NCBI GenBank assembly: GCA_965116795.1 | Contig: OZ220716.1 | Span: 1 to 64,000 of the forward strand | DNA length: 64,000 bases | DNA from: Gammaproteobacteria bacterium | GTDB taxonomy: Bacteria > Pseudomonadota > Gammaproteobacteria > JAJFKG01 | Direction: 5' to 3' | In this document: positions 53,138 through 55,767 of the stretch, piece after piece | Numbering within the stretch: the stretch's first letter is position 1 | How the letters are laid out: every line of letters starts with the position of its first letter | The notes under the pieces: generated by a model | Databases searched by the model: none | What the model saw: the letters and a program-made list of their open reading frames with translations, nothing else | Told to the model about the DNA's origin: nothing | Translations under genes and position numbers: made by a program

Positions 53138-53209
53138 AAAATAATTAAGTGTAGTTAACACCATCCATTGTTAGCTACCAATAAGGTGCACGTACTACTT
53201 CATTCATTG
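53138..53209 (+). repeat. 72-bp direct repeat, copy 1 (putative structured leader/ncRNA)
   Basis: 71/72 identical to 55696-55767. Confidence 0.9.
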
Positions 53210-53409
53210 AACGGTGCAGACAAGGGATCACCTACCACGATAACTCGCCATCATGACTCGGCTGTTTTATCTATCTAAAGGGACGTTTTTTCTCTGTTGA
53301 GAAGAAAGCGGAAGACTTCTTTTACCGATAATTTGTTGGTTGTACGCAACGGGAACACAGCAACACCACAGCAATTGAAATGGCTACCTGCTGGTAGTCA
53401 TTAGGTGAA

Positions 53410-55590
53410 GTGGCAATGCCCGAAGATCGTAAGCGTAAAGCACAAGGTAATAGTCATGTTGACACTACACAACAGCAAAGTAATCCAGAAAAAAGAAAAA
53501 AATACAATCCACCATCGGTAACGTCGGAACCATCTATTGTTCCAGCAATCACATCATCAAAACAATCTAGTGATTCAGTAGCATTATCATCAGAAGTTAC
53601 CCCGGTTAAACAATCTAAATCCAAAAGCAATTTAACCCGGTTTGATACTCCAGAAACGTATACCCCAACAATATCACCTATCACAAAATCTCGACGTATT
53701 AAACAAATAGAAAGGTCATATAAAAACAACATATCGGTTCCCAAAGTGAAAGGGGTTGTCGCTGAACAAATTGTCGCGGATTCAGTAAAAAAAATAGGGT
53801 TAATCCAAGTACCTTGTGGTAAAAATGGACTTGACTTAGTATTTACTGTTAAGACTGAAGAACAACTTGTTGCGCTGAAAACGTTGTTATATCAGTCAGC
53901 TGCTACCAATCAATTAGGACAGCGTAATTCTCAACGACTTTCTGAAAAATCTAAAAGAAGTAACACCGAACAACAGATCAAAAAATATTGGGATACCGTA
54001 TGTGGTACATACGGTATCCCTACCGACCCACCTTTTTTAGTTGTTATTGAAACTAAGTCAGATAATGCAACACTTACTCGTGGCCAGAAGAATCCAGAAA
54101 GTTATATCCGAAAACATTTAGAAAAGTTAGCTAAAAAAGAGCATAGCGGAACATTAATTTTTGAGCCTCAAGATGATATTCAGCAAACTGAACAACATAG
54201 TGAATGCATTGAAGACACTAAAGATGAATATATAGAAGATGTCGAACAAGATGATAGTTTGCAGACACCTGACTATTATGCAAGGATTTGTGAATATCCA
54301 ATACTACCTCTGCTCGTTCGTGCTAACAATTTTCAACACGATACCGTAGAATTATCAATCGATTTCTGGGAACAACCCACAAAAGGTTCACGACGAATTG
54401 CAACTAATCCAATCACAGCACCTATTCCAGACGATTGCCACCATCTAGCCAATTCAACTCAAATTGGTTCAGCTACTGAAGATGCTATCATTGGTTGGCT
54501 AGTAAAATGTAATCAATGGCATTATGCAGGTGATGTAAAACATACTGGTGAGCACGGTATCGATGCTATCTTTTTTGACGATGCTGGCAATGTTTATGTT
54601 GTCGAAATTAAAGGGCATATTCATACCGATAATTACGAACGTAAACCTTTTGGAAGGCATTCTCTCAGCTTATATGATAATCAACTATCAAAAGCACAAA
54701 AAAATCCTGTTGAATTTGTTAAAAATGCATGTAAAAAAGCCATTGAATTTAGTACCACTAGTCAGCAATCACGTAAAAATGCACTAGGGTTACAACAGTT
54801 ACTAAAAGAAAATTATCCGCATGTTTATTTTCGTCAAGCAACAGCATTTTTACCGAATTACGGAGAAATAGGTACACTTGATGTTACTGTTAAGCAATGG
54901 GGCACACAAGAAGAAGCGCCATATTTACAAGAACAGGATGACGCTACACTATCCAGTAGCAATATGGCTATCACACCTCCAGCTATATTGCTTTTTGACC
55001 GCCAAAACATTCATACCTATCAATATCGACCACCCTTCAATGGTCGTAGTACGTCTCCCCAAACGTGTTCGAGCAGCTCATCTACATCCAGCACAATGTA
55101 TACAAGTAGTCATCCGGACAATACTAATTTATTTTATCCAAAACTGACCAGTAAGCCAAAGGCTAAACGTCAATTAGATAGGGGTGGTGCATTTGATCAG
55201 GAATTTGATGACTCTTTATCAAGTGAAGACAGCGATAGCGAGTTAGCTGGTTCACCTGATTTTGGATCAACCGATTTCAACACCATAGCAGATGATACAT
55301 TTGATTTTGATAGTCCCTTAGTTTACCCACCTGAACATGAATTAACTGCTCCGGATACCGATACTGAAAACCATTATGATCCAGCTGATCCAAAAGGTAA
55401 ACGGGAAGTCGATGATGGCACAGAAGATCCACTAGCAGAAGTATTTCCCTTATATGATGCTGTTGATTCATTTCATTCAGCTAATCCCAATAGTTTCTTC
55501 GCACCTTACCCAGCTAGCCCACAAGGAACGATGTCTTTTACACATGTGGTAGAAAAAGATACTACTGAAGATATGAATATATTGCCTTAG
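53410..55590 (+). CDS. Orphan protein with two PD-(D/E)XK nuclease-like domains and NLS-like N-terminus
   Basis: G..AE..NGLDLVF..VVIETK..LTRGQKNP and G..TE..HGIDAIF..VVEIK..LSKAQKNP; RKRK/KRKK; acidic tail; start may be ATG 53416. Confidence 0.75.
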   Translation: MAMPEDRKRKAQGNSHVDTTQQQSNPEKRKKYNPPSVTSEPSIVPAITSSKQSSDSVALSSEVTPVKQSKSKSNLTRFDTPETYTPTISPITKSRRIKQIERSYKNNISVPKVKGVVAEQIVADSVKKIGLIQVPCGKNGLDLVFTVKTEEQLVALKTLLYQSAATNQLGQRNSQRLSEKSKRSNTEQQIKKYWDTVCGTYGIPTDPPFLVVIETKSDNATLTRGQKNPESYIRKHLEKLAKKEHSGTLIFEPQDDIQQTEQHSECIEDTKDEYIEDVEQDDSLQTPDYYARICEYPILPLLVRANNFQHDTVELSIDFWEQPTKGSRRIATNPITAPIPDDCHHLANSTQIGSATEDAIIGWLVKCNQWHYAGDVKHTGEHGIDAIFFDDAGNVYVVEIKGHIHTDNYERKPFGRHSLSLYDNQLSKAQKNPVEFVKNACKKAIEFSTTSQQSRKNALGLQQLLKENYPHVYFRQATAFLPNYGEIGTLDVTVKQWGTQEEAPYLQEQDDATLSSSNMAITPPAILLFDRQNIHTYQYRPPFNGRSTSPQTCSSSSSTSSTMYTSSHPDNTNLFYPKLTSKPKAKRQLDRGGAFDQEFDDSLSSEDSDSELAGSPDFGSTDFNTIADDTFDFDSPLVYPPEHELTAPDTDTENHYDPADPKGKREVDDGTEDPLAEVFPLYDAVDSFHSANPNSFFAPYPASPQGTMSFTHVVEKDTTEDMNILP

Positions 55591-55695
55591 TATTACGTAA
55601 TCAATACATAGTTTAAGGCATGACAAGCAACACTAAATCTATCAAAAAACCAAATAATCTTGATTGTGTAAAAATTATATATAATGCAGCCTGAA

Positions 55696-55767
55696 AAAAT
55701 AATTAAGTGTAGTTAACACCATTCATTGTTAGCTACCAATAAGGTGCACGTACTACTTCATTCATTG
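55696..55767 (+). repeat. 72-bp direct repeat, copy 2
   Basis: 71/72 identical to 53138-53209; TATAAT at 55680-55685 upstream. Confidence 0.9.

What the first reader, a model, noticed from the sequence alone, without database searches (positions are those of the whole stretch)
53138..55767. 72-bp structured direct repeat flanking the nuclease gene and heading two unrelated orphans
Seen: AAAATAATTAAGTGTAGTTAACACCATYCATTGTTAGCTACCAATAAGGTGCACGTACTACTTCATTCATTG occurs twice (1 mismatch), 2558 bp apart. Each copy starts 9-10 nt after a -10-like hexamer (TACAAT, TATAAT), while sequence on both sides diverges. It can fold as nested stems GTAGT/ACTAC, CACC/GGTG and ATTG/CAAT, and is unlike the other repeats here. 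Inference: (a) a shared cis-regulatory 5' RNA for an effector cassette array, (b) a constant scaffold plus variable 3' segment RNA associated with the dual nuclease, or (c) recombination sites allowing cassette gain or excision. With the nuclease gene, this is the best candidate for an undescribed system in the window.
Basis: partly seen in the sequence, partly recalled or inferred. Interest (0 to 1): 0.78.

Follow-up and report, generated by a model that had tools for sequence, protein, structure and literature searches.

The report
Shared gene-start leader on orphan genes
Two neighbouring, unrelated orphan genes in a bacterium with a host-injection (Dot/Icm) system carry the same 72 bases just behind their predicted promoters, most likely a reused transcript start of an ordinary kind that recurs with other sequences in the same genome, and probably not a guide RNA or a recombination site.

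Summary
The repeat is real: 72 bp, 1 mismatch, 2558 bp apart, and only these two copies in the 2.45-Mb genome. Each copy starts 9-10 nt after a -10-like hexamer. They head a 724-aa protein with two PD-(D/E)xK-type motifs and an unrelated 177-aa orphan, inside a ~3.5-kb insertion between ppa and nhaP, which are adjacent in both relatives. The proposed nested fold is not favoured (pair probability <0.01); a single hairpin of unremarkable stability forms instead. I found no Rfam match, homolog elsewhere, terminator, tRNA anchor, recombinase or recombined junction. The nuclease homolog in a relative lacks the repeat. The same architecture with a different sequence occurs 2.3 Mb away: a tandem pair of effector-like genes sharing promoter and leader. 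Best reading: promoter/5'-leader reuse on likely secreted effectors (0.6). Rivals: a selected cis-regulatory leader (0.22), a recombination handle (0.1), a guide RNA (0.02). The scan noted similar duplicated-leader arrangements in other genomes, but not this sequence. Ordinary kind; low interest.

The parts
53138..53209 (+). 72-bp repeat, copy 1; predicted first ~72 nt of the transcript of the 724-aa gene
55696..55767 (+). 72-bp repeat, copy 2 (T at 55723 where copy 1 has C at 53165); predicted first ~72 nt of the transcript of the 177-aa gene
53100..53128 (+). sigma-70-like promoter of copy 1 (TTGATT-17-TACAAT); activity untested
55660..55685 (+). promoter-like zone of copy 2 (TTGATT, 14 nt, TATAAT); weakly homologous to the copy-1 promoter; not called by the scan
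53151..53178 (+). predicted 10-bp hairpin in copy 1 (8-nt loop that holds the single mismatch); pair probability 0.97-0.98 in the leader context
55709..55736 (+). same predicted hairpin in copy 2; pair probability 0.94-0.98
53167..53182 (.). near-perfect 16-bp palindrome inside the repeat (also at 55725-55740); operator-like, but no other close intergenic copies in the genome
53416..55590 (+). gene A: 724-aa protein (726 aa from GTG 53410) with two PD-(D/E)xK-type motifs (E117/D140/E212-x-K214 and E355/D383/E397-x-K399), N-terminal basic clusters and an acidic low-complexity tail; likely Dot/Icm effector (inferred)
55826..56359 (+). gene B: 177-aa orphan, unrelated to gene A; real coding signal
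55769..55832 (+). two 9-codon ORFs between copy 2 and gene B (55769-55798, in frame with gene B and closed by its own stop; 55803-55832, overlapping the gene B start). An 11-nt complement of the repeat hairpin's 3' arm lies at 55792-55802; its pairing is predicted at only 0.01-0.05
56380..56410 (.). 12-bp hairpin between the convergent gene B and nhaP; terminator-like on the - strand
52988..53016 (-). ppa promoter (TTAGCA-17-TATAAT), also seen in G001; left boundary of the insertion
53030..56540 (.). approximate extent of the lineage-specific insertion (37% GC); ppa and nhaP are about 135 bp apart in G001 and G002

Best explanation
The repeat is most likely a reused gene-start block: the first ~72 nucleotides of a predicted transcript, copied together with its promoter zone so that two unrelated, likely secreted orphan genes start from the same leader. 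Shown: two copies, each directly behind a -10-like hexamer and ahead of a real orphan gene, inside a lineage-specific insertion in a genome with a Dot/Icm component. Inferred mechanism: a promoter-plus-leader unit was duplicated locally. Either a tandem duplication was followed by replacement of the downstream gene, or a circle carrying promoter, leader and gene A crossed over in the leader, which gives exactly P1-R-A-P2-R-B. The promoter zone then drifted (20/35) while the 72-nt block stayed almost identical, through recent gene conversion between copies 2.5 kb apart, through selection on an ordinary leader feature (the 5' hairpin or a repressor site at the palindrome), or both. The predicted effect is that genes A and B are transcribed and regulated alike from separate promoters. 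The repeat would need no dedicated enzyme and would not act with the nuclease.
For: Only two copies in the genome and none in 40 other genomes. ppa and nhaP are adjacent in G001 and G002. Dot/Icm IcmK is present in 3 of 3 genomes. Genes A and B are unrelated (hhalign probability 0.4%), and B has coding signal (0 of 146 shadow ORFs score as high; 1 of 2000 shuffles gives such an ORF). A second adjacent tandem pair (G000:C1 2332552-2337240 and 2329716-2331797, WD40 and ARM-like proteins) shares a different block: 26/36 over the promoter, 47/50 just after the -10, 13/22 and 17/50 beyond. It too is missing behind sucB in G001 and G002. A three-member dispersed family shows 43-46 of 50-51 in the same zone. 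Shared upstream blocks on non-homologous genes are common in prokaryotes: over 4,000 families, mostly pairs, about 92% identical (PMC3575422).
Against: Transcription start sites are predicted only, and the copy-2 promoter has poor -35 spacing. Upstream homology is weak (p about 0.02-0.04). 71/72 identity cannot be plain neutral drift at the promoter zone's divergence (binomial 1e-16 at 57%, 2e-10 at 70%), so conversion or selection is needed, and I cannot tell which. The analogous families were found through their best-matching block, so only the block's position is informative. One dispersed pair is better conserved over the promoter (32/35) than over the leader (43/51), and another family's block ends at its -10. 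The second tandem pair shares one 45-aa patch at 40%, so it is not wholly unrelated. Effector status of A and B is inferred, not tested.
Confidence: 0.6

Rival explanations
1. The 72 nt are a dedicated cis-regulatory module (RNA hairpin or switch, or a repressor operator just downstream of the start site) kept by strong selection. It controls when each effector-like gene is expressed.
For: The block begins at the predicted start site and is far better kept than the promoter. The single mismatch falls in the hairpin loop, and the hairpin is predicted at 0.94-0.98 in both leaders. It holds a near-perfect 16-bp palindrome. An 11-nt complement of the hairpin arm lies downstream of copy 2 next to two tiny ORFs (local alignment p 0.005, uncorrected among 8 tests). 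The G002 nuclease homolog's leader also begins with a hairpin, of different sequence.
Against: No Rfam family; fold z only -1.4 to -1.5. The alternative helix exists only for copy 2 and is predicted at 0.01-0.05. No terminator in either leader. The palindrome has no close intergenic matches elsewhere, and no 7-mer of the repeat is enriched after multiple testing. No homologs exist for a covariation test.
Confidence: 0.22
2. The repeats mainly serve as recombination sites through which the 2558-bp promoter-gene A cassette is gained, amplified or excised, by a site-specific enzyme or by RecA.
For: Direct orientation flanking exactly one gene plus a promoter; the locus is an insertion; the palindrome could be a binding site.
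Against: No tRNA anchor, unlike the genome's real att-like pair, a 91-bp repeat adjoining tRNA-Leu around an AbiEi/AbiEii cassette. No recombinase among the ORFs at 44-64 kb. No integron integrase over cut-off. Best dif-like fit has 7-8 mismatches of 17. No joints or allele swaps in contigs of 5 runs that cover the locus. The empty site in relatives holds no copy of the repeat.
Confidence: 0.1
3. Each copy is the constant scaffold of a small RNA whose variable 3' part guides the dual PD-(D/E)xK protein to a target.
For: One copy lies on each side of a gene with two conserved nuclease-type motifs; constant-then-variable layout.
Against: The G002 homolog keeps both motifs but has no repeat in 14 kb around it. 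No 3' end signal. The variable parts run into mRNA leaders of real genes. No significant match of the variable parts in the genome; 0 and 2 exact 20-mer hits in IMG/VR, the 2 with unrelated flanks. The fold matches are stand-alone Hjc-like nucleases. The same layout occurs beside non-nuclease genes.
Confidence: 0.02

Closest known systems
Putative mobile promoters / promoter reuse (Nijveen, Matus-Garcia and van Passel 2012, PMC3575422; main text read)
   Same: A pair of highly similar non-coding blocks (71/72, above their 80% over 50 nt) upstream of non-paralogous genes in one genome, with no Rfam or IS identity. They leave the same question open: selection or recent duplication.
   Different: Their screen used positions -150 to -50 from the start codon, aiming upstream of the start site. 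Copy 2 falls in that window (-130 to -59), copy 1 does not (-278 to -207). Here the conserved block is predicted to be transcribed leader, not the -35 region.
Borrelia burgdorferi erp / upstream homology box loci (PMC10016077; passages read)
   Same: Conserved promoter/operator DNA shared by host-directed genes whose bodies are diverse, giving co-expression.
   Different: erp genes also share a leader peptide and first residues, occupy an allelic site on cp32 prophages and have known binding proteins. Here no coding sequence is shared, there are two tandem chromosomal copies, and no binding protein is known.
Terminal reassortment of type III effectors (Stavrinides, Ma and Guttman 2006; recalled, seen only as a term in search listing and in an earlier scan note)
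   Same: Re-use of a gene-start module to bring new sequence into an effector repertoire.
   Different: That model moves promoter, ribosome-binding site and N-terminal signal together. Here the shared block stops 206 and 58 nt before the start codons, and the secretion system is Dot/Icm, whose signal is C-terminal (recalled).
attL/attR pairs of integrative elements (example in this genome at G000:C1 1806793/1809625)
   Same: Direct repeat of 70-90 bp bracketing a 2.5-2.8-kb cassette.
   Different: That pair adjoins tRNA-Leu and flanks an AbiEi/AbiEii module. This repeat has no tRNA, and the empty site in relatives has no copy of it.
Stand-alone PD-(D/E)xK nucleases (RPA0323 3fov, archaeal Hjc 2wcw/1gef) for gene A
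   Same: The C-terminal module aligns at Z 7.2 (rmsd 3.0, 97 residues) to 3fov and Z 6.0 (rmsd 3.8, 98 residues) to Hjc; most top Foldseek rows are nucleases of this fold; catalytic-type E/D/ExK residues are invariant in 3 homologs.
   Different: Two modules in tandem with long disordered ends; no Pfam or NCBIfam family; model confidence is low (pLDDT 52.7); Z below 8 may reflect only a common arrangement; the N-terminal module was not folded alone.

Membership tests
Putative mobile promoter (PMC3575422) | At least 80% identity over at least 50 nt between non-coding upstream regions of one genome | tested here: met
   71/72
Putative mobile promoter (PMC3575422) | Adjacent coding sequences not paralogous | tested here: met
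   BLASTP best E 0.12 over 11 aa; hhalign probability 0.4%
Putative mobile promoter (PMC3575422) | Block lies within -150 to -50 of the start codon (the screen's window) | tested here: not met
   Copy 2 at -130 to -59, copy 1 at -278 to -207. It works like one but is not filed in that set.
Putative mobile promoter (PMC3575422) | Promoter activity / transcription from the block | not testable with these tools
   Consensus scan only; all runs laid were contigs
Borrelia erp upstream homology box | Shared leader peptide and N-terminal residues downstream of the shared DNA | tested here: not met
   Shared block ends 206 and 58 nt before the start codons; proteins unrelated
Known cis-regulatory RNA / riboswitch | Match to an Rfam covariance model | tested here: not met
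   0 matches at E <= 1 in 52000-57000
Known cis-regulatory RNA / riboswitch | Conserved structure supported by covariation | tested here: inconclusive
   Only two copies with one loop mismatch; no homologs found
Known cis-regulatory RNA / riboswitch | Expression platform (terminator or ribosome-site sequestration) shared by the copies | tested here: not met
   No terminator-like site in either leader; downstream folds differ between copies
attL/attR of a site-specific integrative element | tRNA or other conserved target present at the empty site | tested here: not met
   No tRNA at 44-64 kb; G001 and G002 ppa-nhaP spacers lack the repeat
attL/attR of a site-specific integrative element | Cognate recombinase nearby | tested here: not met
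   None recognisable among ORFs at 44-64 kb (read by eye; four were Pfam-scanned)
attL/attR of a site-specific integrative element | Excised circle or empty-site junction | tested here: inconclusive
   No joints in contigs, but a crossover in the 44-bp identical segment leaves no trace in such contigs
Integron cassette (attC) or dif module | Integron integrase in the genome; dif-like site | tested here: not met
   TIGR02249 not over cut-off (no control genome was over cut-off either); at least 7 of 17 mismatches to a recalled dif consensus
RNA-guided nuclease system | Non-coding RNA locus co-conserved with the nuclease | tested here: not met
   G002 homolog lacks the repeat; context of the other homolog (P0002) could not be read
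RNA-guided nuclease system | Variable segment matches a target | tested here: inconclusive
   No match in own genome, IMG/VR, phages or plasmids; the host genome is unknown and was not searched
PD-(D/E)xK nuclease superfamily (gene A) | Conserved E...D...ExK motif on the Hjc-like alpha/beta core | tested here: inconclusive
   Motifs invariant twice in 3 homologs; C-terminal module Z 7.2 on a pLDDT 52.7 model; activity untested
Dot/Icm effector (genes A, B) | Translocation by the Dot/Icm system | not testable with these tools
   IcmK present; orphan status, basic clusters and C-terminal composition are suggestive only

The most novel reading that the evidence does not exclude
The 72 nt are a new, lineage-restricted cis-regulatory leader, one of at least three unrelated start-site-anchored leader families in this genome. 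It is kept by selection and works as a portable 'effector leader': any new gene that lands behind it is put under host-stage control, and the locus grows by insertion of promoter-bearing cassettes through crossover in the leader.
Probability: 0.18. Interest if true: 0.5.

Novelty: new member of a known kind. Interest (0 to 1): 0.2.

Why it matters
If the best reading holds, this is a clean but ordinary example of how an intracellular bacterium gives new host-directed genes their expression signals by copying gene starts. It adds a case to promoter reuse, with no new mechanism. If the leader proves to be a selected regulatory module, it would point to an unstudied layer of effector control in a poorly sampled Dot/Icm lineage. 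The more unusual object is gene A itself: a rare (three known lineages) tandem PD-(D/E)xK protein with predicted nuclear-localisation-type basic clusters, which could be a host-nucleus nuclease. Nothing found ties it to the repeat.

Tried and rejected
Homolog searches for the repeat. 40 other genomes gave only short chance matches (best E 0.016). The hairpin-arm pattern gave 7 metagenome, 5 genome and 13 viral loci; all 25 had flanks at chance level (at most 7/13 left, 12/32 right). PLSDB and INPHARED gave none. No look-alike in earlier scan notes. No covariance model was built, as two copies carry no covariation.

Genome-wide regulon: the palindrome and 16-mers of the repeat have no close intergenic matches; TTAGCTA 78 vs 49 expected does not survive 16,384 tests. 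Recalled PmrA- and CpxR-like boxes matched near the promoters only at mismatch levels met about 2,000 times per strand. No GGA motif lies in the repeat's + strand. The minus-strand loop of copy 1 holds a GGA, but the one mismatch removes it in copy 2, so a CsrA-binding antisense RNA (consensus recalled) was set aside. No significant similarity between this repeat and the other leader families (p 0.25-0.98).

A frameshift or assembly error at the start of gene B: none in contigs. Homology of A and B: rejected.

Expression: no RNA holder listed, and a run guessed to be RNA laid nothing; neither bears on expression. Contig depth in run X1 was 68-71 inside and outside the cassette, but the tool states that depth is no copy number, and runs X1-X4 are one study and may be the source.

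More nuclease homologs: profile and single searches returned only the queries; the metagenome scan confirmed none of 531 candidates; the Atlas gave no result. The DotA family did not ring (no control rang either). The underlying NAR paper on promoter propagation is not held. I ran no search aimed at a paper on this locus and make no claim that it is absent from print. No complex prediction was run, as neighbourhood alone gave no reason.
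Full report
Observation. The repeat is present as described: 53138-53209 and 55696-55767, one mismatch (53165 C / 55723 T), 2558 bp apart. BLASTN and a profile search of the whole 2,447,832-bp genome find these two copies and no third; the next best nhmmer E-value is 4.1. Among 21 low-copy repeat pairs of 40-600 bp at 90% identity or more, two are close intergenic direct pairs: this one and a 91-bp pair adjoining tRNA-Leu. 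Contigs of runs X1-X4 show no other letters or indels in the repeats; these runs are one study and may be the source, so they check the assembly, not the distribution. The copies start 9 and 10 nt after -10-like hexamers. Only the copy-1 promoter was called by the scan, which overall found no more sites than shuffles (17 vs 18.1). The 3' boundary is sharp. Upstream, the two promoter zones are weakly similar (20/35; 12 of 727 and 30 of 726 control promoters score as well).

Structure. The minimum-energy fold is a 10-bp hairpin at repeat positions 14-41 with the mismatch in its loop (z -1.40 and -1.53; 20 and 13 of 200 shuffles fold as well). In full leaders the hairpin is predicted at 0.94-0.98; a competing helix with 55792-55802 exists only for copy 2, at 0.01-0.05. 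Rfam gives 0 matches at E <= 1. No terminator-like site lies in either leader. A 16-bp near-palindrome sits inside the repeat, but it has no close intergenic relatives in the genome, and no 7-mer of the repeat is enriched after correction.

Context. In both available relatives (G001, same genus, 90% complete; G002, same family, 97%) ppa and nhaP are about 135 bp apart, and the spacer lacks the repeat. The ~3.5 kb between them here (37% GC) is therefore lineage-specific. All 3 genomes encode Dot/Icm IcmK, and this genome holds many eukaryote-like genes. Gene A (724 aa) has no Pfam or NCBIfam family. A search of 1.84 billion representatives found 2 proteins, itself and P0002 at 40%, and a search of 61 genomes found one more in G002. 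All three keep two E...D...ExK motif sets. A low-confidence model (pLDDT 52.7) matched PD-(D/E)xK nucleases weakly: Foldseek best E 8e-3, and Z 7.2, rmsd 3.0, 97 residues to 3fov and Z 6.0 to Hjc for the C-terminal module. The N-terminal module was not folded alone. Gene B (177 aa) is a singleton with real coding signal and is unrelated to A. Effector status is inferred for both.

Distribution of the repeat. It was not found in 40 other genomes, in plasmids or phages, or among 25 pattern hits in three collections, whose flanks all matched at chance level. The G002 nuclease homolog sits at a different locus with no copy in 14 kb; its leader begins with a hairpin of other sequence. The DNA around P0002 could not be read, which leaves co-conservation tested on one homolog only.

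The same architecture elsewhere. Comparing 1,140 upstream regions gave 166 similar pairs (at least 40 nt, E <= 1e-5), of which 71 remained after removing paralogous genes and close divergent pairs. Many of these are REP/MITE or IS remnants; I inspected 11 and aligned 5 families. Two of the 71 are adjacent same-strand pairs: this one and G000:C1 2332552-2337240 / 2329716-2331797. The latter are a WD40 and an ARM-like protein sharing one 45-aa patch, and they are missing behind sucB in G001 and G002. Identity by zone for promoter / first 50 nt / next 22 / beyond is 20/35, 49/50, 22/22, 23/55 here and 26/36, 47/50, 13/22, 17/50 there. A dispersed three-member family gives 22-32/35, then 43-46 of 50-51, then 15-17 of 22-25. 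Against a general rule: these families were found through their best block, one pair is better conserved over the promoter, and another family's block ends at the -10. The leader families do not resemble each other (p 0.25-0.98).

Mechanism. Shown: two near-identical blocks behind promoter-like hexamers, ahead of two unrelated real genes, in an insertion. Inferred: each block is the start of an mRNA. The unit arose by local duplication, or by crossover of a promoter-leader-gene circle in the leader, either giving P1-R-A-P2-R-B. Because 71/72 identity is incompatible with drift at the promoter zone's divergence, gene conversion or selection on a leader feature must have acted; two copies cannot separate these. 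I put passive or ordinary-regulatory reuse at 0.6, a dedicated selected regulatory module at 0.22, a main role as recombination handle at 0.1, and a guide RNA at 0.02.

Against recombination sites: no tRNA, no nearby recombinase, no integron integrase over cut-off, no dif likeness, and no joints in 5 runs that cover the locus. A crossover in the 44-bp identical segment would be invisible in such contigs, so this last test is partial. Against a guide RNA: no 3' end signal, no target match (host genome not searchable), a homolog without the repeat, and the same layout beside non-nuclease genes.

Comparison with known systems. It works like the putative mobile promoters of Nijveen et al. (PMC3575422, main text read): over 4,000 families, mostly pairs at about 92% identity, cause unresolved. 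It meets their identity and non-paralogy criteria, but copy 1 lies outside their -150 to -50 window, so I do not file it in that set. It also recalls Borrelia erp loci (PMC10016077, passages read; lead from scan note e1-1010202) and terminal reassortment (recalled), but shares no coding N-terminus. Earlier scan notes describe similar duplicated leaders in other genomes; none concerns this sequence.

Verdict. A real feature and a new instance of a known kind, with no evidence of an undescribed RNA-nuclease or recombination system. Interest 0.2. The tandem nuclease protein is the part most worth separate follow-up.

Noticed in passing
window 53416-55590; L010 934-2655; P0002-P0004: Rare family of tandem PD-(D/E)xK proteins with disordered ends and basic N-terminal clusters: this protein, a 513-aa one at 40% identity, and a 573-aa one in G002. 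Both motif sets are intact in all three; a candidate host-nucleus nuclease effector.
   Followed up: partly
G000:C1 2324451-2337540 (L052): Three large effector-like genes (WD40, ARM-like, NACHT) inserted behind sucB; the first two share a ~100-bp promoter-plus-leader block (89%), near-identical just after the -10. Same architecture as this finding with unrelated sequence.
   Followed up: partly
G000:C1 115637(-), 1131188(+), 1380224(+): Dispersed family of effector-like genes, several starting MKTQ, sharing a ~250-nt promoter and leader whose first hairpin has a GGAG loop followed by a short ORF; possible CsrA-type control (consensus recalled).
   Followed up: partly
G000:C1 1806793-1809715 (L057): 91-bp att-like direct repeat adjoining tRNA-Leu(CAA) around an AbiEi/AbiEii toxin-antitoxin pair, right after a 368-aa reverse-transcriptase-like ORF (named by eye) and two ~3,000-aa orphan genes.
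   Followed up: partly
G000:C1 1154086-1162254: Tandem eukaryote-like SH3 plus protein-kinase genes (named by eye) next to phage-tail-like genes; similar modules recur many times, and about 461 kb of the genome lies in sequence with 4 or more self-matches.
   Followed up: no
window 53210-53415: The long leader of gene A has four GGA motifs (two AGGGA) outside the repeat; gene B's leader has none.
   Followed up: no
window 20376-21059: Tandem array with a 51-bp period, about 13 units.
   Followed up: no
window 59429-59612 and 25708-25889: Two elements with long terminal inverted repeats (35 bp perfect; 37 bp at 92%), about 185 bp long and MITE-like; the first lies before a 285-aa orphan.
   Followed up: no
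window 52181-52221 and 56491-56531: Inverted pair of a REP-like palindromic element on either side of the ppa-insertion region (41 bp, 90% complementary).
   Followed up: no
G000 whole genome: No dif-like site within 2 mismatches of a recalled consensus, and only one weak tyrosine-recombinase match to the integron-integrase model.
   Followed up: partly
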